A stretch of DNA of 64,000 bases from Torpedo marmorata (taxonomy: Eukaryota): assembly GCA_977017645.1 (NCBI GenBank), contig OZ360229.1:25110001-25174000 (forward strand). The letters run 5' to 3'. Below are positions 1,175 through 61,841 of the stretch, piece by piece (the first letter of the stretch is position 1; each line of letters begins with the position of its first letter). Both the position numbers and the translations under genes were made by a program. A model generated the notes under the pieces. The model made no database searches. It worked only from the letters and a program-made list of their open reading frames with translations, and was not told the origin of the DNA.

Positions 1175-1310
1175 TCAGACTCTGGAAAGCTGAATTAAAA
1201 CAACAGGCTGGAAATACTAGTGATGAAGGGCTGCTTGCCTGAAATGTTAATTCTTTTTCTACAGGTGAGGCCTCACCTGATGAGTATCTCCAGCATTTTC
1301 TGTTTTCAAT
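1175..1310. mobile_element. Degenerate fold-back Penelope-derived element with a decayed hammerhead-like core
   Basis: gctggaaatact / agtatctccagc arms around gtgatgaagggctgcttgcctgaaatgt. Confidence 0.55.
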
Positions 1311-4076: not shown

Positions 4077-6459
4077 TTTTTTTAAAATAATTTTATTTAG
4101 TTTTTAAAATCACAAAATACATAATCAAAAATAGTATATTATTCAAAATACATGTGATACATTTACCACCCCCCCTCCCTCCCTTCCCCAACCCTCCCAC
4201 ACTATTCTAATAAAAAAAAAGAAAAATAAGAATATATAAAAATGTTAGTTAAAAGAAAAGAAATAGAATGAGAAATAAAGTTAAGAGAGTTAGTATGAGG
4301 AGAAAACTATTTCATACTAACTCTATTTATATATTGGAGGTTACTTTTGTCAGCGGTACTAACTTTTAGAGAATTAATTCATACCCATAATTCTCATGTA
4401 TGGGCTCCAAATTTTCAAAAAGAAATGATATTTGTCTCTTAAGTTATACGTAATTTTTTCCAGTGGAACACAAGAACGTAACTCTGCATGTAATCTATCT
4501 AAATTCAAATCTAAGTCTGATTTCCAAGTAATAGCAATACATTTTTTTGAAATTGCTAACACGATTCGTAAAAATTCTATTTGGTACATATTTAATCTAT
4601 TTCTAATACTAATTTTTTTAATATCTCCAAACAAAAATATCATAGGATCCATTGGAATCGTAATATTAAAAATTCTATCTAAAAAATCTTTGACTTTAGA
4701 CCAAAAATTTTTAATTTTCAAACATGACCATGTACAATGTACAAAAGAACCTATTTCATCTTTACATCTAAAACACATATCTGACAATGCCGGATTGAAT
4801 TTCTTTAATTTTTTGGGTGTTATATATAATTGATGAAAAAAGTTATACTGTACTAATCTATATCTAACATTAATAATCTTAGTCATACTCAATTTACACA
4901 ATTCTTTCCAATGTTGTTCATCTATACTAGTATTTAGATCTAATTCCCAATTTAATCTAGATTTATGCAGTCCTACTTTAGGTATCTTTTTCTGAAATAA
5001 TTTATACATTTGCGATATAAATTTATTAACATTTCCATTAGTAATTAATAACTCTAACCCATCCTGTCTAGGAGATATTAATTGATTCCCTAATTTCTCA
5101 ACTAAAAATCCTTTAACTTGATAATAAGCCAAAATTGTATTATCCACTATTCCAAATTTTTCTTTCAATCTAGAAAAAGTAACAAATCTTCCTGCCTCAA
5201 AACAATCTTTAATCTTCTTCTTAATTCCTTTTTGATACCATAATTTTAAAAATTGATTATCCATAGAAAATGGTAGTAATAAATTCTGATATAATGGCAT
5301 ATTTAAAGAAATTAATCCTTTTCGCCCTATTTCATTATCTAATTGATTCCAAATCTCTAATAAATGTCTAATAATCGGTGACTTTTTCTTTTTAATCAAT
5401 AATAATTTAGAATTCCATTTATAAATAATATCTTCCTTATTTCTTTCTCCTATATTACTTAATTCTATATTAATCCAAGCCGTATTTTTAGTTAAATCAA
5501 ATAGTTCATTTATAAATTTTAATTGTGCTGCCTTATAATAATATTGAAAATTAGGAAGTTGTAATCCACCCATTTCATATTCCCAAGTTAATTTATCCAT
5601 ACTTACTCTTGCCAATTTTCCTTTCCATAAAAACTTTCTAATAATATTTTTTAAATCTTTAAAAAATTTTTGAGGAATACCAAAAGGTATAGATTGAAAA
5701 AGATATTGAACTCTTGGAAAAATATTCATTTTAATACAATTCACTCTTCCCATTAAAGTTATAGGTAAATCTTTCCAATTATCCAAATCCTTCTTTATTT
5801 TCTGAAATAAAGGTATGTAATTTAATTTATATAAATTTTCTAACTTTGTATCCACTTTAACTCCCAAATATTTAATAGCTTCTTTAGCCCATTTAAATTT
5901 TGTAACTTCTTTACATTTAGTATAGTCTCCTTGAGATAAAGCCATTATCTCACTTTTATCCGAATTTATTTTATATCCAGATATTTCACCATAATCCCTC
6001 AATATTTTATCTAATTGTTGAAGTGATTCAATAGACTTTGTCATATATATTAATACATCATCTGCAAACAAACTAATTTTATGCTCTTCTGCACCTACTT
6101 TTATCCCATTTATATTCATATCTTTCCTAATCATTTCCGCCAACGGTTCTATTGCCAATACAAATAAAGCAGGTGACAATGGACATCCTTGTCTTGTTGA
6201 CCGTGTCAAAGAAAATTTAGATGATATTTGACCATTTGTAATTACTTTAGCTGTAGGTTCCTTATATATAGTTTTAATCCAATTTATAAACGTGTTTCCA
6301 AATCCATATTTCTCTAAAACCTTAAATAAAAACTTCCACTCTAATCTATCAAACGCTTTTTCTGCATCTAATGCTATCACTAACGGTAAATCCTGTTTCT
6401 TTTTTTGTAAATTAATCAAACTTATTAATCTTGCTATATTATCCTTTGAATATCTATTT
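4077..6459 (-). mobile_element. 5'-truncated L1-clade LINE with uninterrupted RT and C-terminal Cys/His region; young insertion
   Basis: ORF 4374-6515 contains LDAEKAFDRLEW, RQGCPLSP, LFADD, YLG and CxxC..H...C. A-tail on the minus strand at ~4076-4083. Perfect 16-bp TSD ATATGTAGAATTTCCT at 4061-4076 and 6460-6475. Confidence 0.92.
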
Positions 6460-6978
6460 ATATGTAGAATTTCCTGATGTAATTGTATATGCAATGTTTT
6501 TGGAATTGTCATCAAAATGACTGGGATGTGGAAGGCAGATTGTGTGAAAGCTGGAGAAAATGCAAGGTAACATAAACCCAGGAATCCTAAATTTGTGATT
6601 TTATTCTAATTCTTGCATTTTTTTTTATACATAGCTCTTAAGTTCCATATTTTGGAATCTTCAGCCAAAAATGCCTTGTATCAAGCAATTCCCAGTCACA
6701 ACTGCAGTAGAGTTTTATAATCATGGGGCAGTACTGTACCCTGCAGTTATGGCCCTGAGATCCCGTTGGATGTTTCTTTCTATTTCTAGTTGTAGTGATG
6801 TTTAAATTGGTGTGATAACTTTGTAGTTATATCAGTGATATTGTGAAGATTCCAGTGAAAGCTTTACATATTTCTGCTGTTTTCTAGCAATTAAACTGAA
6901 TTTTTAAATGTTACTTTTATTCTTAAAAGTACTCATTCTGTGTAACGTCTTTCATTCCTGAATATTTTTGTTTTACAG

Positions 6979-8541
6979 AACAATACCTATACTGCCATGT
7001 CTGACTCCTACCTACCAAGTTACTATAGCCCATCCATAGGGTTCCAGTATTCATTGAGTGAAGCTGCTTGGTCTACAGCAGGGGATCCACCTATGCCCTA
7101 TCTGACATCGTATGGACAGCTCAGTAATGGAGAGCATCATTTTCTACCTGATGCTATGTTTGGACAGCCAGGGACTTTGGGGAATACTCCTTTCTTGAGC
7201 CAGCACGGGTTTAACTTCTTTCCTAGTGGTGTGGACTTCTCAGCTTGGGGGACCAACAGTTCTCAGGGACAGTCCACTCAAAGCTCAGGCTATAGCCCCA
7301 GCAGCTATGCCTATCCTCCTAGCTCTCTGGGCGGAGCTATGATGGATGGACAGTCAACTTTTGCCAACGACACACTGAATAAAGCACCAGGTATGAACAG
7401 TATTGACCAAGGAATGGCAGGACTGAAAATAAGTGGTGGTGAGGTCGCTAGTAATGTATCTAAAATGGTAGGTTCTGCTGTTGGGAGCAATCCTATATCG
7501 ACTATTTCAAATAATGCGATACCTTCTAATCCCATGCCACCAACTACAATTGCTCCCCCCAAGCCAGCTTCATGGGCGGACATTGCAAGCAAGCCTGCAA
7601 AACCCCAACCCAAGAAAGCAAAAGGTGGGTCCAGTGGGCCATCTCTTCCACCACCTCCAATTAAACATAATATGGACATTGGTACCTGGGATAACAAAGG
7701 GACGGTGGCCAAAACCGCTCCTCAGCCATCAACTCAAGCCAGTGGCCAGCAACAAGGCCAGCCGCCTCCACTGCCGGTGAACCAACAGGTGGTCAATATG
7801 CAGCCTCAGCAAGTATCCTCGGGCCAACAGCAGCAAGTGGCCCCGCAGCCAGTGCAGCAGCCACAGCCAAATCGCTGGATTGCACCCCGCAACCGTGCAG
7901 CCGGCTTTGGCCAAAATGGAGTGGATGCTGGAGGAATTGGGCTGGCACATGGGAATTCAAATTCTGCCTCTGTGGAAGCACACCCAGTTTTGGAGAAATT
8001 GCGTTCTGTCAACAACTACAATCCCAAGGATTTTGACTGGAACCCCAAACATGGACGAGTTTTTATCATTAAGAGCTACTCTGAGGATGACATCCATCGT
8101 TCTATTAAATATTCCATTTGGTGTAGTACAGAACATGGCAACAAGAGACTGGATGCAGCCTACCGTACCATGAACGGCAAAGGCCCTGTGTACCTCTTGT
8201 TTAGTGTCAATGGGAGTGGTCACTTTTGTGGTGTTGCCGAGATGAAGTCGACTGTAGACTACAACACTTGTGCTGGGGTGTGGTCTCAGGACAAGTGGAA
8301 GGGACGGTTTGACGTCAGGTGGATATTTGTGAAGGACGTGCCCAATAGTCAACTGCGGCACATTCGCCTGGAAAACAATGAAAATAAACCTGTCACCAAC
8401 TCCCGAGACACTCAGGAGGTGCCCTTGGAAAAGGCCAAGCAGGTTCTGAAAATTATTGCCAGTTACAAGCATACGACCTCCATCTTTGATGACTTTTCTC
8501 ATTACGAAAAACGTCAAGAGGAGGAGGAGTGTGTTAAAAAG
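6979..8541 (+). CDS. YTHDF2: YTHDF2 large internal (penultimate) coding exon: low-complexity P/Q/S region plus the complete YTH m6A-binding domain
   Basis: Acceptor ttttgttttacag|AAC at 6978/6979 in phase 0 ([22 protein letters not shown]...). Donor AAG|gttggt at 8541/8542. The translation closely follows human YTHDF2 ([70 protein letters not shown]). The aromatic-cage Trp residues are present. Confidence 0.97.
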
Positions 8542-12687: not shown

Positions 12688-12896
12688 GTAAAAATGCAAT
12701 GCTGGAGAAACTCAGCTGGTCAAATGGTGTACTTTATGTAGCAAAGATCAAGGTAAGTGATGAAAGGCTCAAGCCCGAAACATTGGTGATGTATCTTTAT
12801 CTTTGCGATTATAAAGTACACTGTTTGACCCGCTGAGTTTCTCCAGCATTGTGTTTTTAACTTCACCCACTGCGTCTACAGACTTTCATGTTTTGC
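12688..12896. mobile_element. Fold-back Penelope-derived element with a sense-strand degenerate hammerhead core
   Basis: Arms aatgctggagaaactcagc.ggtcaaa / tttgacc.gctgagtttctccagcatt. Loop contains gtgatgaaaggctcaagcccgaaacatt. Imperfect TSD ggcagttt(t)aagat.aaaa on both sides. Confidence 0.8.
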
Positions 12897-18690: not shown

Positions 18691-18909
18691 TAGAACGTAG
18701 AACACTACAGCACAGTACAGGCCCTTCGGCCCTCGATGTTGTGCCGACCCATATATTCCTTTTTTTTAAAAAGTACTAAACCCTCCCTACCCCATAATCC
18801 TCTTTTTTCATTCATCCATGTGTCTGTCTAAGAGTGTCTCAAATGCCCCCAATGTTTCAGCCTCCACCACCATCCCTGGCAAGGCATTCCAAGCACCCAC
18901 AACTCTTGT

Positions 18910-18951
<42 letters not shown>

Positions 18952-20800
18952 CCCCTGATGTCTCCCCTAAACTTCCCTCCCTTAACTTTGTACATATGTC
19001 CTCTGGTGTTTGCTGATCCTGCCCTGGGAAACAGGTGCTGGCTGTCCACCCTATCTATGCCTCTCATAATCTTGTAGACCTCTATCAAGTCTCCTCTCAT
19101 CCTTCTACGCTCCAAAGAGAAAAGTTCCAGATCTGCTAACCTTGCCTCATAAGACTTGTTTTCCAATCCAGGCAACATCCTGGTAAATCTCCTCTGTACC
19201 CTCTCCATACCTTCCACATCCTTCCTATAATGAGGTGACCAGAACTGAACACAATACACCAAGTGTGGTCTTACCAGAGATTTGTAGAGTTGCAACATGA
19301 CCTCTCTACTCCTGAATTCAATCCCTCTATTAATGAAGCCTAGCATCCCATAGGCCTTCTTAACTATCCTATCAACCTGTGCAGCGACCTTGAGGGATGT
19401 ATGGATTTGAACGCCAAGGTCCCTCACTCTTAAGTAACTGACCATTAACCCTGTACTCAGCCTTCTGGTTTGTCCTTCCAAAATGCATCACCTCACACTT
19501 ACCTGGTTTGAAATCCATCTGCCACTTTTCTGCCCAACTCTGCATCCTGTCTATATCCTCTTGTAACCTTCGACAACCTTTAGCTCCATCCACAACTCCT
19601 CCAACCTTCGTGTCATCTGCAAACTTACTGACCCATCCTTCCACCTCTTCATCCAGGTCATTTATAAAAATCACAAAGAGCAGGGGTCCCAGAACACATC
19701 CTTGCAGCACTCCATTAGTCACCGACCTCCAGGCAGAATACTTTCCTTCCACTACTACTCTCTGCTTTCTTCCTACAAGCCAATTTTTTATACACACAGC
19801 CAAGGTTCCACTGATCCTGTGCTTCATGACTTTCTGGATGAGTCTCTCGTGGGGGACTTTGTCAAATGCCTTGCTAAAATTCATGTAGACCACATCTACT
19901 GCCCTACCCTCATCATTTTCTTTTGTTACCTCCTCAGAAAACTCAATTAGACTCATGAGGCACAACCTTCCCTTCACAAAGCCATGCTGACTATCCTTGA
20001 GTAGACTGTACTTATCCAAATGCTCATCCTATCCTTAAGAGTCCTCTCCATTAGTTTGCACACCGGTCTATAATTCCCAGGATTCTCCCTATTAAGTTTT
20101 TTAAACAAGGGGACTACATTTGCCATTCTCCAATCCTCTAGCACCTCCCCTGCGGCCAAAGAGGATTCAAAGATCATAGCTACTGCCCCAGCTATCTCTT
20201 CTCTCACTTCCCACAGCAGCATGGGGTATATCGCGTCCGGCCCCGGGGACTTATCGATCTTGATGTTTTTAAGAAGATCCAACACTTCCACTTCCTTAAT
20301 CTCCACATTGTCCAGCACACAGGCCTGTTCAACTTCGACCTCACTGTGATCAAGGTCCTTTTCTCTTGTGAATACTGACACCAAGTATTCATTTAGGAGT
20401 AAACACGAAAATCTGTAGACACTGTGGTTGAAGTAAAAAACACAAATGCTGGAGAACTCAGCAGGTCAAACAGTGTCTTTTATGTAGCAAAGGTAGAAAT
20501 ATATAACCGACGTTTCGGGCTTGAGCCCTTATAACCGTTTAGGACCTCCTCTGCCTCCAGGCACATGTTGCCTCCTTTATCCTTTAGTGGCCCCACCTTC
20601 ATTCTCGTCATCCTCCTGTTCACATACGCATAGAACGCCTTGGGGTTCTCCTTAATCCTACATGCCAAGGGCTTCTCATGCCCCCTTCGATTTCTCCTAA
20701 GTCCTTTCTTATAAGCTCCTTCATGGCTACCATATATTTCACGTTTCCTGCTTCCTATATCTAATGTATGCTTCCTTCTTCCTCTTGATTTGCTCTTCCT
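18691..20800 (-). mobile_element. 5'-truncated CR1 LINE with frameshifts, interrupted by a Penelope fragment
   Basis: ORF pieces with KSPGPD, PGNYRPV, SQHGF, FSKAFDKVPH, QGCVLGPLLF, KFADD and LVRPHL..CVQFWSP. Confidence 0.92.
20399..20537 (-). mobile_element. Penelope terminal fragment nested in CR1
   Basis: Matches the 23250 element end. 7-bp duplication TTTAGGA at 20392-20398 and 20538-20544. Confidence 0.8.
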
Positions 20801-20934
20801 CTTTGGTTGGTGGGCTAGGTTATTTAATTCAGTGGTTTGCTTTAGATCTGCTGGCCGAAATGACATTAGATTATTTTATTGCCACGAAACCAGAATACTA
20901 GAGAGATTCAGCCTACCAAGCCTGTGCTGACCAT

Positions 20935-22804: not shown

Positions 22805-23249
22805 ACAAGATCATAAGATATAGGAGCAGAAATAGGCCATTCAGCAAATTGAGTTTGCCCCGCCATTTAATCATGAGCTGATCCATTTAACCACTCTGCC
22901 CCACTGCCTGGTCTTCTCCCCATTACCTTCGATGCCCTGGCTAATCAAGAACCTATCAATCTCTGCCTTAAATACACCCAATGACTTGGCCTCCACAACT
23001 GCCTGTGGCAACCAATTCCACAGATTTTCCACCCTCTGGCTGAAGAAATTCCTCCGCATCTGTTCTAAGCAGGTGCCCTTCAATCCTGAAGTTGTGCCCT
23101 CTTGTCCTAGACTCTCCCGCCATGGGAAACAACCTTTCTGCATCTACTGTCCATGCCTTTCAACATTCAAAATGTTTCAATGATAGCCCCCTCATTCTCC
23201 TAAATTCCAGCGAATGCAGGCAAGTGCTGTCAAACGCTCCTCGTATGAT
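22805..23249 (-). mobile_element. CR1 3' fragment (continues briefly at 25527 after the Penelope insertion)
   Basis: ORF 22871-23143 has RRNFFSQRVENLWNWLPQAVVEA..FKAEIDRFL. Confidence 0.85.
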
Positions 23250-25516
23250 GTAAAAACACAAATGCTGGAGAAGCTCAGCAGGTCAAACTGTGTCCTTTAT
23301 GTAGCAAAGGTAGAAATACATAACCGACGTTTCGGGCTTGAGCCCTTCATCAAAGTATGAGAAAATGCCGGCAGGCGCCCGATCAAAAGAGTTGGAGGGG
23401 GGTGGCAAAGGCAGGAGGTGATAGTGGAGAAAGGAGGGAGGGGACAGCAGCAATGAGGGGGAGGAGGGATGGCTGGGTGGGTGGAAGAACTGGAAGGACA
23501 GGGAAGGGGGGAGGTGAAGGAAAAGGCGAGCAGGTTAAGTGGAAAGCATATAAGTCTATGTTAATGCCATCTGGCTGGAGAGTGCCCAGACGGAAAATAA
23601 GGTGTTGTTCCTCCAATTTGTGGGTGGTCTGGATGGGATAGTACATAAGGCCATGGACAGACATGTGAGTGTGGGAGTGTGACTCGGAATTGAAATGGTT
23701 GGCTACTGAGAGGTCACTTGTTGTGGACGGAGAGGAGTGATCTCCCAATCTACGACCGGTTTCTCCGATGTAGAGAATGCCACAAAGGGAGCACCGGATG
23801 CAGTAAATAAGTTCTCTGGATGTACAAGTGAAGTGTTGCTTCACTTGGAAGGCCTATTTGGGGCCGTGGTGAGGGAGGAGGTGTGGGCGCAAGTGTTGCA
23901 CCTCCTGCAGGCACAGGGGAAGGTGCGGTGGGTGGGGAGGGATGAATGCACGAGGGAATCGAGGAGGGAGCGGTCCCTGCGGAAGGCCGAGAGGGGAGGA
24001 GAAGTAAAAATGTGTCTCGTGGTGGGATCCTGTAGTAAGTGCCAGAATTTCTGGCGGATAATGTGTTGGATGCGGAGGCTGGTGGGGTGGTAGGTGAGGA
24101 TGAGGGGGTTTCTATGTTTCTTGCGTCTGGGGGCAGAGGGGGCCAGGGCAGATGAGCGGGAAATGGAGGAGATGTGTGTGAGGGCTGAATTGATGGTGGT
24201 GGAGGGGAAGCCACGTTTGTGGAAGAAGGCAGACATTTCGGAAGATCTGGACTGGAAGACCTCATCTTGGGAACAGATGCGGCGGAGATGGAGAAATTGA
24301 GAGAAGGGGATGGAATCCTTGCAGGGGACAGGGTGTGAGGAAGTGTAGTCCAGGTAGTTGTGGGAGTTGGAGGGTTTGTAGTATACGTCGGTGGAAAGCT
24401 TGTCTCCCGCGATGGAGACAGATCCAGGAAGGGGAGAGTGTTATCGGAGATGGACCAGGTGAGTTTGAGATTGGGGTGGAAGTTGGACACGAAGTGGATG
24501 AAGTTGACAAGTTCATCGCGGGTGCATGAGGCAGCCCCGATGTTGTCGTCGATATACCGGAGGAAGAGATGAGGGGTCATGTCCTGTGTAGGCTTGCAGC
24601 ATGATTGCTCCACAAAGCCCACAAACAGGCAGGCGTAGCTGGGACCCATGTGGGTACTCATGGCTACTCCTTTGATTTGGAGGAAGTGGGATAAAGGAGG
24701 TTATTTATGGTGAGTTCAAGTTCTGCCAGGCGAAGGAGGGTGGTGGAAGAGGGTGACTGGTCGGGTCTTTGGTCCAGGAAGAAGCGAAGTGCTTTCAGAC
24801 ATGTGTGGGGGATAGAGGTATAAAGGGATTGGACATCCATTGTGAAGATGATGCAGTCTGGTTCAGGGAATCTGAAGTCATTGAGGAGATGGAGGGCATG
24901 TGAGGTGTCGCGGATGTAGGTGGGGAGGGATTGGACCAGGAGAGAAAAGATAGTCAAGGTAAGATGAAACTAGTTTGGTGGAGCAGGCAGAAGCAATGGG
25001 TCTGCCCGGATAGTTGGGTTTGTGTATCTTGGGTAGAAGGTAGAAACGGGCAGTGCGGCGGTGGGAGAGAATGAGGTTGGTGGCCATGGAGGGGAGGTGA
25101 CCAAAGCTGATGAGGTTGGAGATGGTGTTGGAGACAGTGACTTGATGTGTGGTGGTGGGGTCCTGTGGGAGGGGTCGATAGGAGGAGGTGTCTGAGAGCT
25201 GTCGACTGGCCTCGGCAAGGTAGAGGTCAGTGCGCCAGACTACAACCGCACCCCCCTTGTCTGCGGGTTTGATGGTGAGGTTGGAATTGTTGCGGAGAGA
25301 GTGGAGGGCAGAGCGTTCTGAGGAGGTGAGGTTGGAATACGAGACGGGAGTGGTAAAGTTGAGACGGTTGATGTCTCGGCGGCAGTTGGAAATAGAAAGG
25401 TCCAGAGCGGGCAGCTGGCCAGGACAAGGTGTCCAGGAAGAGGAAGAAGGCTTGAAGCGGGAGAAAGGGTCTTGGGTGGAGAGTCACGGTCATGGAAGTG
25501 AGCCCGGAGGCGGTGA
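23250..25516 (-). mobile_element. Penelope-like retroelement (Neptune-type): RT, Cys linker and GIY-YIG endonuclease; frameshifted and 5'-truncated
   Basis: FYLLPKIHK..GRPI, TMDVQSLYTSIPH, MGPSYACLF, RYIDD, linker CACRRCNTC, IYCIRC..C..LYIGET.R.L and EQHLIFRLGTLQPDGIN. 10-bp TSD CTCGTATGAT at 23240-23249 and 25517-25526. Confidence 0.92.
23319..23359 (-). ncRNA. Minimal type I hammerhead ribozyme motif (U3 variant) in the Penelope terminal repeat
   Basis: Minus strand: CAUACU-UUGAUGA-A-GGGC(UCAA)GCCC-GAAACGUC-GGUUAUG, giving stem I, stem II and a palindromic ACGU stem III. Confidence 0.65.
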
Positions 25517-27294: not shown

Positions 27295-27492
27295 TCAACA
27301 GAAATGCTCAACAAGTCAGGAAGAATCTATGGGAAGAGAAAGGGTTACCACTTCAGGTCGGAGACCCTTCATCAGATTGGGATCTGGGATTTTCACTTCT
27401 CAGATGACAGTGATAGAATGGAAAATTTTGCTGACTGCATTACATTTTTTCTTACATTTATTACAGTTACTCCAGCATTGTGTTTTTATTAC
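27295..27492. mobile_element. Degenerate Penelope-derived short element
   Basis: The minus strand has ctgatgaagggtctccgacctgaag. The element ends in ctccagcattgtgtttttat. Confidence 0.55.
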
Positions 27493-34281: not shown

Positions 34282-34305
34282 GAGCGCCAAGGTCGTGTCA
34301 AATAA
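34282..34305 (+). CDS. YTHDF2: YTHDF2 terminal coding exon (ERQGRVK*)
   Basis: Acceptor ccttttccttgcttttacag|GAG CGC CAA GGT CGT GTC AAA TAA. It matches the human C-terminus ...VKKERQGRGK and joins 8541 in phase 0. Confidence 0.93.
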   Translation, partial: ERQGRVK

Positions 34306-36090: not shown

Positions 36091-38214
36091 TGGGGAATTA
36101 GCTGGATTGAGCGGAAAATTGAGAATTAAAACTCATTGAATGAGGAATTGTATATTGGATCCACTAAGTTGTATGGGTGGAAACATATTGCTCCCACAAA
36201 TGGTAGGAAAGCTTCAGAATGGAACTTACTCAGCCTTTAAAATTTAAGTGATGACTTTCCTCACACTGGACATGAAGCCTGATGGTGCATGTATTTGGTA
36301 TTGATCCTTTAGCTAAATTTGGGTCCATCCAAAGTCCCCACCAGTTTTTGCATGACCAAACTCATTGTCATCAAATTTGTGGTTTACAGGAAAGAATGGA
36401 CAACTGTTTCATTACATAACAACAATCTGATGTTTGTGGTCCATTGTGTTATGAATTCCAGTGTAAGCATTTAAAATGGAAATTCTCCACATTGTAATCA
36501 ATGCAACCTACCATGTGATTGGATTTTCATTTTTGTGACTTGCGTCAGACTGTGCTGCTCTTCAGCCAGTTTCACTTTGCTCTATAAATGGTTGCAAGGT
36601 TTGCAGCTTAACTTAAAATGCAATATAAAATCAAGCTTTTTTTCAGAAGCCAAGAGTGTATGATTTAAAATAGGAGATATAACTCGCCCTGCGCTGTTCT
36701 AATTAACTCCTGCCCTGTAACTCCAATACACCTGAAGCCTACATTTGTTTTCAAGTCCCTGGATGCAATATCATGGGAGATGGACTACTTAGTAAAGTTA
36801 ACTAGGTTACAAACTGATTTTCTTCAAACTGGTGCTGTTTGAAATCTGATGACAGTACTACGTTTATCTCCCATGTGTTACGATTGCAAATTTCTTTATT
36901 TACTAATCGCTCATTTACTGACATCAATTACAGCCGATCACATTGTAAAGTTGTATGCTGCCACATCAGTACACGTTGCAGTTGTGACAATGGGTGATTT
37001 TTAACATGACTCCGTGTGGGTTCTGTTTCTCGGGACTTTTTATTGTAGAGTGTAGTGGATTTATACTATGTGCCACCTAGTTTCTGGCTAGAATTGTACA
37101 CAATGCTCCCCTTTTGGACCAGGGTTGCCGGCCACTTATCCATGCTGGTGTTAATGCTCTTCACTTGTATCCTCTCACTTATTTCATCTTTCCATAGTCC
37201 ATTGTTCACACTGTCAACCACTGACCACAATGGACTACTGTGGCTGGTTGCAGAGGCTGTAGGCAGCCATGCTCTGTGACCTCCACAACTGCCTCCATAA
37301 GTGAATTTAACATGCTGCGCTCCCTGGTTTCTCCTGAATTTCTCATTGGATTGCAGGTCATTGCAGGTGTTCCTTAATTTATGAGCATTCAATTTGATTT
37401 TTCCTTAACGCCACTGCATCTGAGGGCAGAGACCTTTGATTTGTAAAGTTAATTTTTGCTACAACAAATAGACCTCCACAGAAATGCACTCCACCAAGAG
37501 ACTTACATTGACTTTTAATTCATGAAATTTTACTTAAAGCATTTTTAAGGAAGTATCCCTTTTGTGAATCAAGATGCTACTCTTGGCTTCCTGTTTTGAA
37601 TTCTTCCAGCAGTGAAGATGTTTACATTTAACCCTATCAGACTCTTTTATGGGTTGGGTTAAATAGCCTGTTTCAGTGTTGTAAATGCATAAATAATTTA
37701 AGATTATTCCTTAACTTCCTTTCTAGTGAAAAGAACCTCAGCTGGTTCAGTCTTTGGCAATGATTCTAAAATATCAGTTCTGGAATCAACCTGGATTTTA
37801 TTTAAAAAAAACTACAATAAAAACTAAAAATGCTGGAAATATTCAGGTGGTCAGGCTGCAGCTGTAGAAAGAGCAACAGAATCAACGTTTGAAGACTAAG
37901 AACTGGGAAGGAGAGAAAAGAATCTTGATCATCTGCAGGGAGGGTGAGGAATGTCTCTGATTAAACCAGGATGGACAGGGGGAGAAGTTGTCAACGAGAT
38001 TATCTGGTCACTGAACGAAAGGGAGCAATAGTAAAGTGAGGACATAGACACAAGAATGTGGAAATTGCAAAATGCAGATTAGGGTGACATACCTGGCAAG
38101 TCTGGCTGGGCATATCCTCCATTCTTGGGAGGGGGGTGGGGGGGGAAAGGAGGGATAAACAAGCAGAGCTGATATCAAGTTGGATGACTGATGCAAACTG
38201 AAATCAAGTTACCC

Positions 38215-38742: not shown

Positions 38743-39419
38743 AGTTGTAGAATAAATATTAAATTCACAAGGTTGCAACATGCCCAGATAAATGATGAGG
38801 CACTGTTCCTCAAGCTTGTGTTGTCCCTCATTGTAATATGCAACTGCCAATAAAATTCGTTCACATTGGGGAATTAGCTCGAATGAGAATAACGAGTTTA
38901 TATTATGGGTAATGGATTCAACAGATGGGTGATGGATTGAACAGAATTCAACCACTTGCCTGATTTTGTAAATTTCAAGAGCTGAAATTAAATGTGCACA
39001 ATGAAATGTGCTGAAGGTTTTGGACATTAATCATGATCTGCTTTGATGAAGCATGACTAATTGCTGGATTACTTTAAAGACAAATGACCTGTACCTGAAA
39101 GTGAAATTGGTGCTTTTGAGGGAAATGAGTCCCTTTATTTTCCATCTTTGCTGATCCTGAGTGGATCTCCACTAATGAATGATGCCTTCTGGCCAAGCAT
39201 CGATGTTGTGCGTTGAGGTTTGGTGGTTCTCTGGAGGCATTACTGGATAATAAACAGAGCTGAGGCTAATTTTTTGGTTCTTTGCCTATCCCTCCAAGAT
39301 GTCCTGCTCTCTCCTGTTCCCTGCAGAGATTCTGAAGAACTGTTGTATTTTCACAGTCCAGTTGGAAACCATGCTGGTATCTTTACGTGAACCCTGGCAG
39401 CAATATGGGCTATATGGTA

Positions 39420-39588
39420 GTAAAACACAAAAGTCTGCAGACACCATGATTGAAGCAAAAGCACAATGATGGAGAAACTCAGCAGGTCAAACTGTACTTT
39501 ATATAGCAAAGATACATGACCAATGTTTCGGGCTTGAGCCCTTCATCACTGTTTGACCTGCTGAGTTTCTCCCGCATTGTGTTTTTAT
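39420..39588. mobile_element. Fold-back Penelope-derived element
   Basis: gagaaactcagcaggtcaaac / gtttgacctgctgagtttctc arms. Hammerhead-like core on the minus strand. Flanks tgggcta(ta)tggta repeated. Confidence 0.8.
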
Positions 39589-39664
39589 TTGGGCTATGGT
39601 ATTTCATTTATCCACCAAGTCATTGAAAGGAAAAATAAGACATTTCACTTTGCATCCATTGAAG

Positions 39665-45329: not shown

Positions 45330-46750
45330 GGGGAGTTCCAGGAGTTAGATCCCGCGACCAGGAAGGAATGAGGATGGAACCCGCCGCATCGTCGGTTTCT
45401 GTCTGTTAATAAGGCAGCAAGATTGTAGATGTAAGTACTGTATCCGTCTCCACGTCCGAACTTACACGCTGGGGGAATGGGGGGAGGGGTGGTGGGAGGC
45501 AGGGGTGGAGTAGTCCTGGGAAAATGACCTTGGAAAGAATGGGGCGAGATGGGAAAGGAAAGGGGGATGCGGTGGGAGAAGGGGAATTGTCTATTGCCTT
45601 TTCCTTTGGATGCGGGTTCAGTTAATCCCACACTCCAGCTGCCCTTTTTTTAAAAAAGTTAACCAGAAGAGTTCCGGCTAAGGTGGCAAACGATTTCCCG
45701 GAGAATGCAAAATTGCCCTGGAGTTTCCCCAAATGCAATTCCTTCCCTACATTTGGGGACCACTGACTTATTGGGAGGAACAAAACCAAAGTCACGAACG
45801 ACGGGGAAACAGTTTCTGTCTGTTGTCGTTCAAGTTAGTTTAAAAAAAAACCCATGCTGCCAATATTTCCTTCTGGTTTCGCCGTCAGACTCCGTTGTGT
45901 TGAGTGTGGATCAGCCGTTGTCCTGGCGATGGCAGCGAAGCGCCCCCTTTTACTCTCTGGGACAGAGAGAAGGCCGAGAGAAGTTTGCAGAAAAAATCTT
46001 GGTGGTTCAAAGGAATATATATGTATATTTGGGGGGGGGGGGATATCTGATCTTCGTGGGAATGAACCGAAAACCTCCGCTTAACCCACCCACTCCCTGG
46101 AAGATGTGGGGCGTGTTGGTGGGGAGAGTTAAGAGAAGCAACACTGTCGACATCGCTGAGATTAACTCAACTGGAAGTCCTGTCCGGTAAGAGCCATAAA
46201 CTGTGGACCAAACGAGTCGAGACTACGGTTAATATTTCTGGCGTCCGGACAGCTCGCTCGCGTTTATTAAACGTCCTAGTTATTAATTTTCTGAATGAAC
46301 TTCCTGCTCTCCCCGCCAACCCACCCACTACCTCCCGCCAGCAACCTCCTTGCACATAAAATGTAGCGTTTCAATGGTTTATCCCTCTAATGATGTGCAT
46401 TGAAAGACACACAAAAAGTTCAGGAATTTGTTTGATGCTTTAATTTGAACGGAGGAAGATAATTAGGGTATTAGCTGGTAGAAAATAGGAAGTATTTTTT
46501 GTGTGCGCGCGTATGTGTGTGTGTGCTCCGGATGCGGGAACATGTTCTGGGGGAATGGGAGAGTGGATCATTTCAGCGCTCTCTGTCCACACCGTCCTCT
46601 GCTGAAATTAAACGTGCAATTGACATCCCAGGGCGATCGCTGTCCTCCGTCACACAAAAAAAATCAGAAACTGGTGTAAACGTTCAGCAGGTCACGGCAG
46701 CATCTGTGAAAAAAATAAACAGAGAGATAACGTTTCAGATCGTGAGATGT
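45330..46750. promoter_or_regulatory. Local CpG-enriched island-like segment
   Basis: Frequent CpG in non-repeat sequence and G-runs at 45471-45505. Confidence 0.4.
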
Positions 46751-47790: not shown

Positions 47791-48130
47791 CAGTTTACCA
47801 CTGGAATCAGCAATGTTTTCATCAGTTGCTGTGTTTATGGTTAACATTATAATATTACAACATAATGCAACATCATTATCAGCATCTTTAATAAAACAAC
47901 AACAGAATTAAGACCTCTAAGCACTTAAAATTAGTTGCAATTAATTGTGCATTTATAAAAATGACAAGTAAATTATGGATTTAATTTAATTGTAATACTA
48001 TATCATACTATTTTAACAGTATAGATGGAAAATGTTTTGTCTTTGATAGGAAGAGAATGGGAGGTAGAGTGAAAGGGAATAGGTTAAGGGGGTGTACAAA
48101 GAGGAGTAGAATAGGATTGGGGTACAAAGT

Positions 48131-48310
48131 GTAAAAACGCAATGCTGGAGAAACTCAGCTGGTCAAACAGTGTACTTTATGTAGCAAAGATAAAGATACA
48201 TATCTTTATTTTTATCTTTGCTACATAAAGTACACTGTTTGACCATCTGAGTTTCTCCAGCATTGTGTTTTTACTTCAACCACGGTGTCTGCAGACTTTA
48301 GTGTTTTACT
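48131..48310. mobile_element. Penelope-derived near-perfect hairpin with 64-bp arms
   Basis: Arms 48131-48194 and 48211-48274 are complementary at 62/64 positions, with a 16-nt loop. Confidence 0.88.
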
Positions 48311-48379
48311 TTTGGGGAGAAAGAGAATGCCCAGGAGAGCTGAGGCTACTGCATCACCCCTCCTGCAGTATACCTTTCC

Positions 48380-51391: not shown

Positions 51392-51846
51392 TAAAAAACA
51401 CAAATGCTGGAGAAACTCAGCAGGTCAAACAGTGTCTTTTATGTAGCAAAGGTAGAAATACATAACCGACGTTTCGGGCTTGAGCCCTTCATCAAAGTAT
51501 GAGAAAATGCCGGTAGGCGTCCGAACAAAAGAGTGAGGGGGGAAGGGGGATGGCAAAGGCAGGAGATGATGGGTGGAGAAAGGAGGAAGGGGACAACAGC
51601 AAAGAGGGGGAGGAGGGATGGCTGGGTAGCTGGAGAAAAACAGGAAGGACAGGTGAGGGGGGAGGGGAAGGGAACGACAAGCAGGTTTAGTGGAAAGCAG
51701 AAAAGTCAATGTTAATGCCATCTGGCTGGAGAGTGCCCAGACGGAAAATGAGATGTTGTTCCTCCAATTTGCGGGTAGTCTGGGTGGGATAGTACATGAG
51801 GCCATGGACAGACATGTGAGTGTGGGAGTGTGACAACAAGTGTGAT
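51392..51846 (-). mobile_element. Penelope 3' fragment nested in CR1
   Basis: Closely matches 23250-23685. 16-bp TSD ACAAGTGAAGTCAAGG at 51376-51391 and 51847-51862. Confidence 0.9.
51461..51501 (-). ncRNA. Second copy of the minimal hammerhead motif
   Basis: 41 nt identical to 23319-23359. Confidence 0.65.
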
Positions 51847-54759
51847 ACAAGTGAAGTCAAGGACAGTATAAAAATAAAAGAGAAGAAGTATAACTTAGCA
51901 AAGATGAGCGGGAAGCCGGAGGATTGGGAAACTTTTAAAGAGCAACAGAAGATAACTAAAAAGGCAATATGGGAGAAAAGATGAGGTACGAAGGTAGGCT
52001 AGCCAAGAATATAAAGGAGGAGAGTAAAAGCTTCTTTAGGTATGTGAAGAGGAAAAAATTAGTTAAGATCAATGTTGGACCCTTGAAGACAGAAATGGGT
52101 GAAATTATTATGGGGAACAAGGAAATGGCAGATGAGTTGAACAGGTACTTTGGATCTGTCTTCACTAGGGAAGACACAAACAACCTCCCAGATGTAATAG
52201 TGGACAGAGGACCTAGGGTAATGGAGGAACTGAAGGAAATTCACATTAGGCAGAAAATGGTGTTGGGTAGACTGATGGGACTGAAGGCTGATAAATCCCC
52301 AGGGCATGATGGTCTGCATCCCAGGGTACTTAAGGCGGTGGCTCTAGAAATCGTGGACGCATTGGTAATCATTTTCCAATGTTCTATAGATTCAGGATCA
52401 GTTCCTGCGGATTGGAGGGTAGCTAATGTTATCCCACTTTATAAGAAAGGAGGGAGAGGGAAAACAAGGAAATATAGACCAGTTTGCCTGACATCAATGG
52501 TGGAGAAGATGCTGGAGTCAATTATAAAAAATGAATAAGCGGCACATTTGGATAGCAGTAACAGGATCAGACCGAGTCAGCATGGATTTACGAAGGGGAA
52601 ATCATGCTTGACTAATCTTCTAGAATTTTTTGAGGATGTAACTATGAAAATGGATAAGGGAGAGCCAGTGGATGTAGTGTACCTGGACTTTCAGAAAGCC
52701 TTTGATAAGGTCCCACATAGGAGATTAGTGGGAAAAATTAGAGCACATGGTATTGGGGGTAGGGTACTGACATGGATAGAAAATTGGTTGGCAGACAAGA
52801 AACAAAGAGTAGGGATTCACGGGTCCCTTTCAGAATGGCAGGCAGTGACTAGTGGGGTACTGCAAGGCTCGGTGCTGGGACTGCAGCTGCTTACAATATA
52901 TATTAATGATTTAGATGAAGGGATTAAAAGTAACATTAGCAAATTTGCAGATGACACAAAACTGGGTGGCAGTGTGAAATGTGAGAAGATGTTATGAGAA
53001 TGCAGGGTGACTTGGACATGTTGGGTGAGTGGGCAGATGCATGGCAGATGCAGTTTAATGTGGATAAATGTGAGGTTATCCACTTTGGTGGCAAGAACAG
53101 GAAGGAAGATTACTATCTGAATGGTGTCAAGTTAGGAAAAGGGAAAGTACAACGAGATCTAGGTGTCCTTGTTCATCAGTCACTGAAAGTAAGCATGCAG
53201 GTACAGCAGGCAGTGATGAAAGCTAATGGCATGTTGGCCTTCATAACAAGGGGAGTTGAGTATAGGAGCAAAGAGGTCCTTTTGCAGTTGTACAGGGCCC
53301 TGGTGAGACCACACCTGGAGTATTATGTGCAGTTTTGGTCTCCATGTTTGAGGAAGGACATTCTTGCTATTGAGGGAGTGCAGCGTAGGTTCACAAGGTT
53401 AATTCCCGGGATGGCGGGACTGTCATATGTTGAAAGATTGGAGCGACAGGGCTTGTATACATGGGAATTTAGAAGGATGAGAGGGGATCTGATTGAAACA
53501 TATAAGATTATTAAGGGATTGGACACGCAAGAGGCAGGAAACATGTTCCCGATGTTGGGGGAGTCCAAAACCAAAGGCCACAGTTTAAGAATAAGGGATA
53601 GGCCATTTAGAATGGAGTTGAGGAAAAACTTTTTCACCCAGAGAGTTGTGGATCTGTGGAATGCTCTGCCTCAGAAGGCAGTGGAGGCCAATTCTCTGGA
53701 TGCTTTCAAGAAAGAGTTAGATAGAGCTCTTAAAGATAGCGGTGTCAAGGGATATGGGGAGAAGGCAGGAACAGGGTACTGATAGTGGATGATCAGCCAT
53801 AATCACAGTGAATGGCGGTGCTGGCTCGAAGGGCCGAATGGCCTACTCCTGCACCTATTGTCTATTGTCTATTTTCTTGTTACTTTATATTTTGTTTTCA
53901 AAACCAAACAAACTGGCTTCTCAGTGGGACATATTATTTGCAAATTGTGTGCAAAATGTGGCTAAGTTGTTAACTACAGCAACTTTACCTAAGCTAAGTC
54001 AGTGTTTTGTTCCTGTAAAGGTAACTCATTCTAATTAGACTAAGGGTAAAGTAATCTGGAGCTTGATTTCTGAGATCAAATCAAAATCATTTATGGATTT
54101 CTTCTTAACAATTTTCCTTTCCATTTATAAGAAAAGCCAAAACCAATTCATGAAAACTCCATGCCAAAACATTACATAAATAAGTTGATAATGTGCAACA
54201 CACTTGAAGGACAAGTGTGACATGTGTGAATGACAGCTCATGTCCTCCCACTTTCAGATGTTCAGCCAGAATCCAGCCATTGATCACACATATCAATTAA
54301 TCAACAATGGCTGCTGAAATACCCACAGTGCTCTCTGTTCCAGAACCTACCTTATCCACAGTATGATTTTGGTGCTGCGAGGTGGGACTTTATCTATGGA
54401 TGTTGTAGACCTGTATTTTCTTTTTGTACTGAGTACTACTAGAGCAGAAGTATCAAAGAACAATGAGCTCAAGTACTGCTTGGAGGTGTACCTAGGAAAT
54501 TAATCTTTGATTCTGAGATACTCCAGGTCCTCTTCAGCTTATGGGCCGGACTGTTTGGATGGTCACATTGAATTCCTGCAAAGGCACACTGAAAGTAGGA
54601 GTCATTTTGATCCATTTTCATTAATGCTCATTTGAACTGGCAAGAATTTAATTTATCAATTTTCTGTAAAGTTTCAGCAGGCCAAAGCAAAGGCCTCGAA
54701 CTACAATGTCATACCTGTTTTCCTACTGGCTTCAGAAGTTGGCTCTAATAGTGGTATCA

Positions 54760-58029: not shown

Positions 58030-58275
58030 AAAAACAGAAAATTCTGGAAATGCCTCGGTATTCGTACAGGATCTTATGGAGGGAGAGACAGTTAATCTTT
58101 CATTATAGTGAAATAGACCAGTCAGTTGGATGAAAGGCCATCAATCTGAAACGTCATCTCTCTCCTTACCCCTCTCTCTCTCTCACTCACTCACTCTCTC
58201 ACTCTCTCTCCCTCTCTCTCTCTCGATGCTGCCCGACTTGTCGAGCATTTCCAGCTATTCCAATTTTATTTCCAA
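58030..58275. mobile_element. Degenerate fold-back Penelope-derived element
   Basis: ctggaaatgc / gcatttccagc arms; gatgaaagg....atctgaaacgt core. Confidence 0.5.
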
Positions 58276-59296: not shown

Positions 59297-59515
59297 GACC
59301 CAGGAGACTCTGCAGATGCTGGAATCTGCAGCAAAAAATAAAAACTGCTGGACGAACTCAGCGGGTCGAGCAGCATCTGTGGAGCAAAGGGAATTGTCGA
59401 CGCTTCGGGTCGAGACCCTGCGTCAAGGACCTGCCACAATTCCTTTCACCCGACAGACGCTGCTCGACCCGATGAGTCCTCCAGGTCGAGTCCTCCAGCG
59501 GCTTTCTTGTTGTTT
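59297..59515. mobile_element. Fold-back Penelope-derived element (different subfamily, CpGs retained)
   Basis: ctgcagatgctggaatc...gctggacgaactcagcgggtcgagcagc / gctgctcgacccgatgagtcctccag. Minus-strand core ttgacgcagggtctcgacccgaagcgtc. Confidence 0.75.
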
Positions 59516-60595: not shown

Positions 60596-61841
60596 GAGCG
60601 TGTGTCTGAGAAGGTCACTGATGCGCCCCCGTCTGTAACTGACTGAGGACAAATCTCTTACACGGGAACACAAAGCTTTCAAGTAAAATGAACTTTGAAA
60701 GACTCCGCTCCCGATTATTACCCTGGTTCACGTTTTCCGTTATATATCCCCCCCCAAAATAAAATCCACACAAATAAATAACTGGGTTCAAAATTCATCC
60801 GAACTATATTTTCCTTAGTAGTTTTAATTTTAAATCCCCGCTGGACATAAAAGGTGAATTAGTGCAATTCATCCCGACAGGAATGTAACTCGAATAGGGT
60901 TATAGGGATATGACATATGCATGTCAATTTAACATTGTCCCAGAAATTCCCGCTAGGGTCCCAAGATTCCGACTGGGGATGTGGTGCAATATCGTGCTCC
61001 CGACTCTGGACCACCCTCTGAATCCTTGTAAGAAAGGCTGCAGCAAACAGATACAAACAGGCTGCGACTAAGGCAAGCGCTGTCCAATGCATAGAGCCAG
61101 CCTGAGCGGCGAACCTCAGGAACCCGTTGTTTCGCGGTGTGATGGTTGAAACCCCTCTCGTTTAGCGAGGGACGGGGCTTAACCGGCACCAGGGTTTGCA
61201 AAACAGACAGTCCACGCCAGTTAATATAATTAAAAGTTAACCCAGACAGTACAACATTTATCCATAGTTTATTTATCTCCGCACATTCTATGCACCAATA
61301 CATTTAATGTACATCATACACCCTCTCCTCTTGAAATATTTCGCAACATGTTACATTTCATTTACCTACCAGATACCGAGAGTTTTATTTAAAGAAATAT
61401 ATTAAGGTCGCTTTTTCGATTCCTCCCTTGGCATTCACCGCGTGCCTTAATTGTATGATATTAAATCAAGGTCCGCCGTGAACACGGAGAGCGAGACCGC
61501 TGCCCTTCTCCCATCCCGGTTTCCGCCGGTGCAGTGTACATTAAGCTTCTTGCTCCGTTTTATCTGCGCGCTTGTTACCTGTGCAGCTGAACAGCTCCTC
61601 CTCCGCATCCTCACTGTACATTTCTCCTGCTTTGGGCTGCTTTGCAATAATTATATGCTAAGATTTCGGTGTCTTTTTGTTTTCGGATGAACCACTTTTC
61701 TGTTCGGGCGAGAGGAGCTCTATATTGCTGGTCCTTCGTGCCTCTCTTTTATTAAAGGGAGGGCGTTCAAAGTAGGGCAGTGTCCCATGTGGCTCCTGGG
61801 TCCATCTGGTCGTTTAGGATCCGCAAAATCCTGGAGAGAGA

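What the first reader, a model, noticed from the sequence alone, without database searches (positions are those of the whole stretch)
23319..23359. Minimal hammerhead ribozyme motif in the Penelope terminal repeat, antisense within the YTHDF2 intron
Seen on the minus strand: CAUACU / UUGAUGA / A-GGGC-UCAA-GCCC / GAAACGUC / GGUUAUG. Stem I pairs CAUACU with GGU(U)AUG and stem II is a 4-bp hairpin. Stem III is reduced to the palindrome ACGU with no loop, with predicted cleavage after GUC. The core has C3>U and an extra A after A9. Known: Penelope-like elements carry minimal type I hammerheads thought to act as dimers through palindromic stem III. An identical 41-nt copy lies at 51461-51501. Activity of this variant is inferred, not shown.
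Basis: partly seen in the sequence, partly recalled or inferred. Interest (0 to 1): 0.7.

Follow-up and report, generated by a model that had tools for sequence, protein, structure and literature searches.

The report
Penelope-element minimal hammerhead, U3 variant
This is a real copy of the small hammerhead-shaped RNA motif that Penelope-like jumping genes are already known to carry, here at the end of a broken element facing backwards in the last intron of a YTHDF2 gene, likely of a ray or shark, where it is likely an inactive passenger.

Summary
Confirmed but ordinary. The 41-nt motif is at 23319-23359 (-), with an exact copy at 51461-51501; 2 of 200 shuffles gave any such motif. It lies 183 nt after the GIY-YIG end of a 5'-truncated, frameshifted Penelope-like element (23250-25516), antisense in the last YTHDF2 intron. 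Copy 2 lies outside that gene. The extra base after A9, the CGU palindrome and a short helix I are the published norm (PMC4209133). The one oddity, U3 against G8, looks family-wide rather than private: it dominates contigs from three organisms (inferred from truncated tables) and fails the published CUGANGA descriptor, but 1 of 56 published motifs has it too. Core CpGs, catalytic G12 included, decay about as fast as flanking CpGs in 3 of 4 runs, so inserted copies are likely unselected. This copy has no tandem partner and is absent from the YTHDF2 pre-mRNA strand, so cleavage here is unlikely. Cleavage was not tested. The scan found this kind six times before in other shark and ray DNA.

The parts
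23319..23359 (-). Minimal type I hammerhead motif with U3 against G8; predicted scissile bond after C17 (23326)
   Evidence: Sequence; chance control
23250..25516 (-). 5'-truncated, decayed Penelope-like element between 10-bp target-site duplications (25526-25517 and 23249-23240)
   Evidence: TSD search and tblastn in 5 pieces with frame changes against a 904-aa relative, residues 241-898; one in-frame stop
23862..25477 (-). Reverse transcriptase remains: DKG motif, YIDD, thumb region, then CX4CxxC linker near 23880-23910
   Evidence: closest named proteins from Mobula, Hypanus and Rhincodon at 53-66%
23536..23865 (-). GIY-YIG endonuclease remains; the stop seen in copy 2 reads TTA in this copy (23538-23536)
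   Evidence: 52% identity over 122 aa to P0005
23250..23318 (-). 3' end of the terminal repeat after the motif; this copy lacks the optional extension of about 38 nt seen in 5 of 7 forward copies
   Evidence: Alignment A1
51392..51846 (-). Second, shorter copy of the same family (endonuclease end, 3' region, identical motif at 51461-51501) with a 16-bp target-site duplication, inserted in another retroelement, outside YTHDF2's coding span
20399..20537 (-). Short copy of the same subfamily truncated inside the core (lacks UGAUG box), 7-bp duplication
12688..12896 (+). Short copy with inverted arm; core starts at U4, G10.1 and G16.2 changed; junction holds an inverted TACCTTGAT (12747-12755) that shows the C2.1-U3 state
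39414..39589 (-). Short copy with inverted arm; core starts at U4, G16.2 changed
48130..48312 (+). Tail-only palindromic copy (two inverted arms, no core)
6978..8541 (+). Large YTH-domain exon of YTHDF2 (host gene)
   Evidence: Pfam YTH; PDB ranking; splice sites read from sequence
34282..34305 (+). Last coding exon of YTHDF2 (ERQGRVK*), which closes the intron holding copy 1
   Evidence: inferred from sequence

Best explanation
The motif is the minimal hammerhead of the 3' terminal repeat of a broken Penelope-like element of a very abundant family, and at this locus it is likely an inactive passenger that does nothing for YTHDF2. In the parent element the motif would sit in both repeats of a tandem transcript, would stay shut as a monomer, and would cut slowly after position 17 only when two motifs pair through ACGU, likely with help from the element's own protein; U3 against G8 is predicted to slow it further. 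Shown here: the motif, its place 183 nt after the endonuclease end, target-site duplications, the optional tail, the family's abundance, and decay of core CpGs among copies. Inferred: family-wide U3, selection on parent elements only, the dimer mechanism (taken from papers on other species). Untested: any cleavage.
For: Element identity. In 13 of 121 metagenome loci picked by the same core pattern, the motif lies 73-690 nt after the C-terminus of a related protein (21 of 121 had any protein hit; flanks were at most 1.5 kb). Abundance: 61,120, 29,462 and 29,556 contigs laid on 240 bases in runs of three organisms; 10 segments in this window. Decay: mean change at 4 core CpG positions against 6 flanking ones is 10.6/9.8 (X1), 29.4/29.6 (X2), 8.4/16.3 (X6), 33.3/29.8% (X15); G12 itself changes in 8.7-27.7%. 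Parent-level constraint: the large non-CpG or asymmetric differences in the motif are U/C at 2.1 (both pair with G1.1), C/U at 17 and U/C at 7, all allowed by the fold. Monomer shut: the lowest-energy fold pairs the UGAUG box with CGUC (-11.8 against -7.7 kcal/mol), as in 68 of 85 distinct metagenome motifs. No partner: one motif in the element, the nearest intact one 28 kb away. Papers: monomer inactive and dimer weak (PMC4209133); protein-dependent and not needed for insertion in vitro (PMC11167929); 8 of 9 Xenopus dimers did not cleave (bioRxiv 10.64898/2026.07.22.740005).
Against: The two intact copies share 76 identical bases with 4 CpGs inside an alignment with 39 differences in 442 columns; permutation P is about 0.02, a weak sign of constraint or of mosaic origin. 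In run X6 core CpGs changed about half as often as flanking ones. Flank rows came from a table cut to the most variable 40 of 121 rows, and depth is per contig, so the comparison is rough. Two helix I changes do not fit the fold: G1.2>A (36% in X15, at most 3.4% elsewhere) and A1.5>C (13% and 21% in X2 and X15). No full-length tandem copy of this family was seen, so the 5' repeat is assumed. No cleavage or RNA-end data.
Confidence: 0.8

Rival explanations
1. The whole family's motif is catalytically dead or nearly so: U3 became fixed in a parent element because cleavage is not needed to transpose, and the shape is kept as a protein-binding or promoter-region structure.
For: C3 stands in 115 of 123 motifs of the same architecture from other sources and in 53 of 56 in Fig. 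S3 of PMC4209133. In one saturation study all changes in the CUGA/G8 region except the C3-G8 swap gave low activity (PMC9901934, passages; a type III ribozyme; no C3U value seen). Ribozyme mutants did not affect insertion in vitro (PMC11167929). No compensating A8 appears among the 40 rows shown of 121.
Against: Other core letters show no high-share change across three organisms, while positions 7, 17 and 2.1 vary in allowed ways. That pattern fits kept catalysis or a short time since C3 was lost.
Confidence: 0.3
2. This copy has been co-opted to regulate YTHDF2, by cutting an antisense RNA or by acting on the pre-mRNA.
For: It lies in the last intron; 76 identical bases are shared with copy 2; co-opted intronic hammerheads exist in amniotes (PMC6155905, passages).
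Against: It is antisense, so the pre-mRNA has no ribozyme. It is one of very many dispersed copies, the identical copy is outside the gene, the host element is frameshifted, and the motif lacks the stable stem III needed to act alone (ACGU duplex -1.7 kcal/mol).
Confidence: 0.03
3. The motif is a chance match to a loose pattern.
For: No Rfam hit; it fails the published descriptor at position 3; the lowest-energy fold is not the hammerhead fold.
Against: 2 of 200 shuffles gave any hit. It sits exactly where the class puts it. Motifs of the same architecture show helix I covariation: 148 of 207 cells Watson-Crick against a shuffle mean of 92 and maximum of 109 (shuffles ignore relatedness).
Confidence: 0.02

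Closest known systems
Minimal hammerheads (min-HHR) in the terminal repeats of metazoan Penelope-like elements (Cervera and De la Pena 2014, PMC4209133)
   Same: Type I layout, no stem III loop, palindromic 15.2-16.2 (CG), extra base after position 9, G10.1-C11.1, short helix I, U-rich 5' flank, position at the 3' end of mostly 5'-truncated copies, very high copy number.
   Different: U3 against G8 instead of C3 (3 of 56 listed motifs have U3; 1, Saccoglossus(1), has it without A8). Stem II has 4 pairs. Helix I starts with a U-G wobble in this subfamily and has a bulge. None of the 56 listed motifs is from a cartilaginous fish.
Hammerhead of the Anolis Poseidon element PAc (Frangieh et al. 2024, PMC11167929)
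   Same: Hammerhead in the pseudo-LTR, followed by a 3' end with an optional 30-40-nt tail; the same two-ended tail is seen here.
   Different: PAc has C3-G8 and was shown to cleave with protein. This element has the CX4CxxC linker that marks Neptune and Nematis, not Penelope/Poseidon (bioRxiv 10.1101/2021.04.23.441226, passages).
Non-LTR retrozymes of vertebrates (Li et al. 2026, bioRxiv 10.64898/2026.07.22.740005)
   Same: Type I hammerhead derived from Penelope-like terminal repeats; found in the one chondrichthyan sampled; monomers dispersed, about 44% in introns in Xenopus tropicalis.
   Different: Retrozymes are tandem units each with a motif; the copies here are single and one is still joined to the element's reading frame.
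Ultraconserved intronic hammerheads of amniotes (RECK and others; PMC6155905, passages)
   Same: Type I hammerhead inside an intron.
   Different: Those are canonical motifs conserved across amniotes; this is antisense to its host gene, minimal, repetitive and inside a decayed element.

Membership tests
PLE min-HHR (Cervera and De la Pena 2014) | Located in the terminal repeat of a Penelope-like element | tested here: met
   183 nt after the GIY-YIG end, 69 nt before the 3' target-site duplication
PLE min-HHR (Cervera and De la Pena 2014) | Search descriptor box 1 'cuganga' (C at position 3) | tested here: not met
   UUGAUGA. The authors' own list includes 3 of 56 motifs with U3, one of them without A8, so C3 bounds their search, not the set as they drew it
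PLE min-HHR (Cervera and De la Pena 2014) | Box 2 GAAA-N-N'-U-H with palindromic 15.2-16.2 and no stem III loop | tested here: met
   GAAA-C-G-U-C
PLE min-HHR (Cervera and De la Pena 2014) | Stem II of 3-7 pairs opened by G10.1-C11.1, extra base after position 9 | tested here: met
   A, then GGGC/UCAA/GCCC, pair probability above 0.99
PLE min-HHR (Cervera and De la Pena 2014) | Helix I of at least 3 pairs next to the core, G-U allowed | tested here: met
   U-G, C-G, A-U, bulge, 3 more pairs; C at 2.1 in 19-78% of depth restores C-G. Predicted occupancy is low in the monomer (0.08-0.14)
PLE min-HHR (Cervera and De la Pena 2014) | Covariation across subfamilies | tested here: inconclusive
   One-sided compatible change at 2.1 and a variable bulge in this family; no two-sided change seen. 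Two-sided changes are seen among other families of the same architecture
Active hammerhead ribozyme | Watson-Crick pair between positions 3 and 8 | tested here: not met
   U3 against G8; no A8 row among the 40 shown of 121
Active hammerhead ribozyme | Self-cleavage after position 17 | not testable with these tools
   All 4 runs laid were contigs and show no RNA ends
Active hammerhead ribozyme | Rfam hammerhead model score | tested here: not met
   No hit
EN+ Penelope-like element | Reverse transcriptase with DKG motif followed by C-terminal GIY-YIG endonuclease in one frame | tested here: met
   Colinear in 5 pieces, broken by frame changes; Pfam scan of the pieces gave no hit, relatives carry PF00078, PF26215 and PF01541
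EN+ Penelope-like element | 5' truncation, inverted segments, optional 30-40-nt tail | tested here: met
Neptune or Nematis clade | CX2-5CxxC linker before the endonuclease | tested here: met
   CACRRCNTC
Neptune or Nematis clade | Placement on an RT tree with named references | not tested
   No clade-labelled reference sequences were fetched
Non-LTR retrozyme | At least two tandem units, each with a full motif | tested here: not met
   Only 2 full motifs in the window, 28 kb apart

The most novel reading that the evidence does not exclude
A hugely amplified Penelope-like family of rays or sharks fixed an uncompensated U3-G8 core, which CUGANGA-based genome searches miss, and went on transposing. 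Either U3 is a tuned state that keeps C3 from slipping onto G1.2 and shutting helix I, or the family shows in nature that the hammerhead shape is kept for something other than cleavage. Natural C3 and U3 families side by side in one genome (a C3 relic lies at 27374) would make the open question of what these motifs do directly testable.
Probability: 0.12. Interest if true: 0.45.

Novelty: new member of a known kind. Interest (0 to 1): 0.13.

Why it matters
As it stands it adds one more lineage and one under-sampled core state to a class described in 2014. It would matter only if the U3 family were assayed: the role of hammerheads in Penelope-like elements is still open (PMC11167929; bioRxiv 10.1101/2021.04.23.441226), and a successful family with a weakened core is a natural test case. 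It also shows that strict CUGANGA searches undercount these motifs. There is no sign that it matters for YTHDF2.

Tried and rejected
No whole genome is held, so there is no genome-wide copy count, no full-length tandem copy and no direct count of C3 against U3. Rfam: no hammerhead hit. Pfam on the 5 element pieces among 7 proteins: no hit. No RNA holder listed; X15 is only a guessed RNA run held as contigs, so nothing is said about expression or ends. The viral-contig scan gave 28 loci that read as chance matches by eye, with no consistent CUGANGA box; they were dropped before the counts. The idea that U3 prevents slip pairing: in folding, helix I occupancy falls from 0.93 to 0.22 when U3 is read as C3 in the C2.1/U7/U17 state, but it is post hoc, the window's own state has only 0.14, just 32 of 85 comparison motifs exceed 0.5, and Fig. 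S3 lists C3 motifs with the same G1.1-G1.2 and a pyrimidine at 7 (Ciona, Xenopus(2)); kept as a weak lead only. An alternative register with C as position 3 and an inserted U was rejected because it breaks helix I at the second pair. The 76-nt identity as proof of selection was rejected as weak: P about 0.02, chosen after the fact, and 26 of 39 differences lie in one pyrimidine-rich tract. PMC1986816 on exchanges of the 3-8 pair is not held, so no measured U3-G8 rate was seen. Literature searches for a description of this family or of C3U activity found no paper on a shark or ray hammerhead family; subscription papers, Repbase and the supplements of the 2026 preprint were not seen and may list it. 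Look-ups of earlier findings by sequence, by genome and for U3 gave nothing.

Full report
Observation. The motif is present exactly as described at 23319-23359 on the minus strand and again at 51461-51501; identity between the two runs for 76 bases. A descriptor of the minimal hammerhead that allows C or U at position 3 finds only these 2 sites in 64 kb; 2 of 200 shuffles gave one hit and none gave two. Rfam has no matching model hit. The host gene is YTHDF2: on the same 172 residues YTHDF2 scores 385 bits, YTHDF3 362 and YTHDF1 351. The large exon ends at 8541 and a short last coding exon ERQGRVK* begins at 34282 (read from sequence). Copy 1 is therefore antisense in the last intron, and copy 2 lies about 17 kb beyond the last coding exon.

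The element. Copy 1 is the 3' end of a 2,267-bp insertion (23250-25516) flanked by a 10-bp duplication. It matches residues 241-898 of a 904-aa relative in 5 colinear pieces with frame changes and one in-frame stop. It has the DKG motif, YIDD, a CX4CxxC linker and a GIY-YIG domain, which points to the Neptune or Nematis type (bioRxiv 10.1101/2021.04.23.441226, 12 of 24 passages seen); no tree was made. The 8 closest of 20 protein hits are from Mobula, Hypanus and Rhincodon at 53-66% identity, so the host is likely a ray or shark. Position 3 lies 183 nt after the natural stop, read from copy 2. The window holds 10 segments of this family's end: 2 with the full motif, 3 cut inside the core, 5 tail only, of which 3 are inverted arms. 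Five of the 7 forward copies carry an extension of about 38 nt that copies 1 and 2 lack. This is the optional tail described for these elements (PMC11167929, parts 1-2 of 4 read). The element has no 5' repeat, so there is one motif and no tandem partner.

What is and is not unusual. PMC4209133 (main text parts 1-2 of 4; supplementary PDF read as text, all 3 parts) names the extra base after position 9, G10.1-C11.1 and the palindromic 15.2-16.2 as standing features. Its descriptor demands CUGANGA, which this motif fails. Its list of 56 motifs, counted by eye, has 3 with U3: two with A8 and one (Saccoglossus(1)) with G8. None is from a cartilaginous fish. In 123 matches with full flanks from a metagenome scan that left position 3 free, 115 have C3 and 2 have U3. 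These come from other families, likely animal host DNA, and show helix I covariation (148 of 207 cells Watson-Crick among 69 distinct strings; shuffle mean 92, maximum 109; relatedness not controlled).

Is U3 private or family-wide? I laid 4 of the 23 listed runs on 23225-23464. Tens of thousands of contigs map in runs of three organisms. No row for position 3 (23353) or 8 (23348) appears among the 40 shown of 121; every row shown reaches at least 21% in some run, so C3 and A8 are likely below about that share. This rests on how the table was cut and is an inference. Loose ends at 23353 in X2, X6 and X15 (422, 136 and 88 contigs) begin GGTAT on the plus strand, that is AUACC before U3. An inverted junction in the window (12747-12755) shows the same C2.1-U3 state. 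The large differences inside the motif that CpG decay alone does not explain are U/C at 2.1 (19, 66, 76, 78%), C/U at 17 (18, 63, 58, 83%) and U/C at 7 (41% in X6 only); the fold allows all three. Against this, G1.2>A reaches 36% in X15 and A1.5>C 13-21% in two runs.

Are inserted copies under selection? Mean change at 4 core CpG positions against 6 flanking ones is 10.6/9.8, 29.4/29.6, 8.4/16.3 and 33.3/29.8% in the four runs; the general base G12 changes in 8.7-27.7%, about as often as its CpG partner. Three of 4 runs show no protection of the core; X6 shows some. Depth is per contig and the flank rows are from the cut table, so this is rough. The 76-nt identity between copies 1 and 2 has P about 0.02 against 39 differences in 442 columns, but it was chosen after the fact and most differences sit in one pyrimidine tract.

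Mechanism. As a monomer the 41-mer is predicted to fold shut, the UGAUG box pairing with CGUC (-11.8 against -7.7 kcal/mol for the hammerhead-like form). The same holds for 68 of 85 comparison motifs, so it is a class trait, not a defect of this copy. The ACGU duplex alone gives -1.7 kcal/mol. In print, a minimal monomer did not cleave and dimers cleaved weakly (PMC4209133); the Anolis motif cleaved only with the element's protein, and dead mutants still inserted in vitro (PMC11167929); 8 of 9 Xenopus dimers did not cleave (bioRxiv 10.64898/2026.07.22.740005, parts 1-3 of 5; supplements not seen). Natural changes at position 3 usually come with A8 (PMC3088659, section 8 and passages), and unpaired changes in this box gave low activity in a saturation study (PMC9901934, passages). 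I saw no measured rate for U3-G8. The most likely picture: in a parent element with two repeats the motif would cut slowly after position 17 as a dimer, with protein help; at this locus it is a single, antisense, unselected leftover. The main rival is that the whole family no longer cleaves.

Novelty. The class, its position and every feature flagged are in print, U3-G8 once. Searches found no paper describing this family, but the 2026 preprint reports retrozymes in one chondrichthyan, and Repbase and subscription papers were not seen. The scan has noted this kind in six other shark or ray windows (unchecked notes). PMC7151607 and PMC6155905 were seen as passages only. Verdict: real, new member of a known kind, interest 0.13. 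The one open thread is the apparently family-wide uncompensated U3, worth an assay only alongside C3 families.

Noticed in passing
window 61423-61493 (-): A mir-124 precursor (Rfam, 81.9 bits) lies 27 kb past YTHDF2, convergent with it. From recall, human MIR124-3 lies convergent with YTHDF1 and MIR124-2 near YTHDF3, so this may be the retained copy of the YTHDF2 paralogon. Copy 2 of the motif is in sense with it, 10 kb downstream.
   Followed up: no
window 12758, 39556, 20530 and 1221: Four short copies (three of this family, one of another) start inside the hammerhead core, three of them at U4, and three follow an inverted arm. Contig depth in X2, X6 and X15 also falls steeply upstream of 23353, which sequence divergence could equally explain.
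   Followed up: partly
window 20537-20531 (-): The 5' junction of this copy begins with a 7-base repeat of the sequence that starts at position 17 and runs into the predicted 3' cleavage product; a single event, possibly a locally templated repair insertion.
   Followed up: partly
window 27320-27380 (-), 59334-59430 (-), 1180-1310 (+), 58130-58160 (+), 46690-46745 (-), 37818-37890 (-): Decayed ends of other families with related tails and partial cores; the one at 27374 has C3, the one at 59426 has U3.
   Followed up: partly
window 4374-6605 (-): An unbroken 743-aa reverse-transcriptase frame (Pfam RVT_1) lies about 370 bases upstream of the large YTHDF2 exon, antisense; possibly a young LINE.
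   Followed up: no
window 20399-20537 and 51392-51846: These two Penelope-family copies are inserted into older reverse-transcriptase-bearing repeats (frames at 18828-20875 and 51960-53782), which gives a relative age order.
   Followed up: no
L036, L049, L081, L094: Metagenome loci with two motifs on opposite strands close together (28 to about 450 bases apart), the inverted arrangement noted in PMC4209133.
   Followed up: no
P0002, P0004: Two ray proteins named by their source as host genes (chitinase domain-containing 1, divergent protein kinase domain 1C) consist largely of Penelope-like RT and endonuclease sequence, likely gene models that absorbed an element.
   Followed up: no
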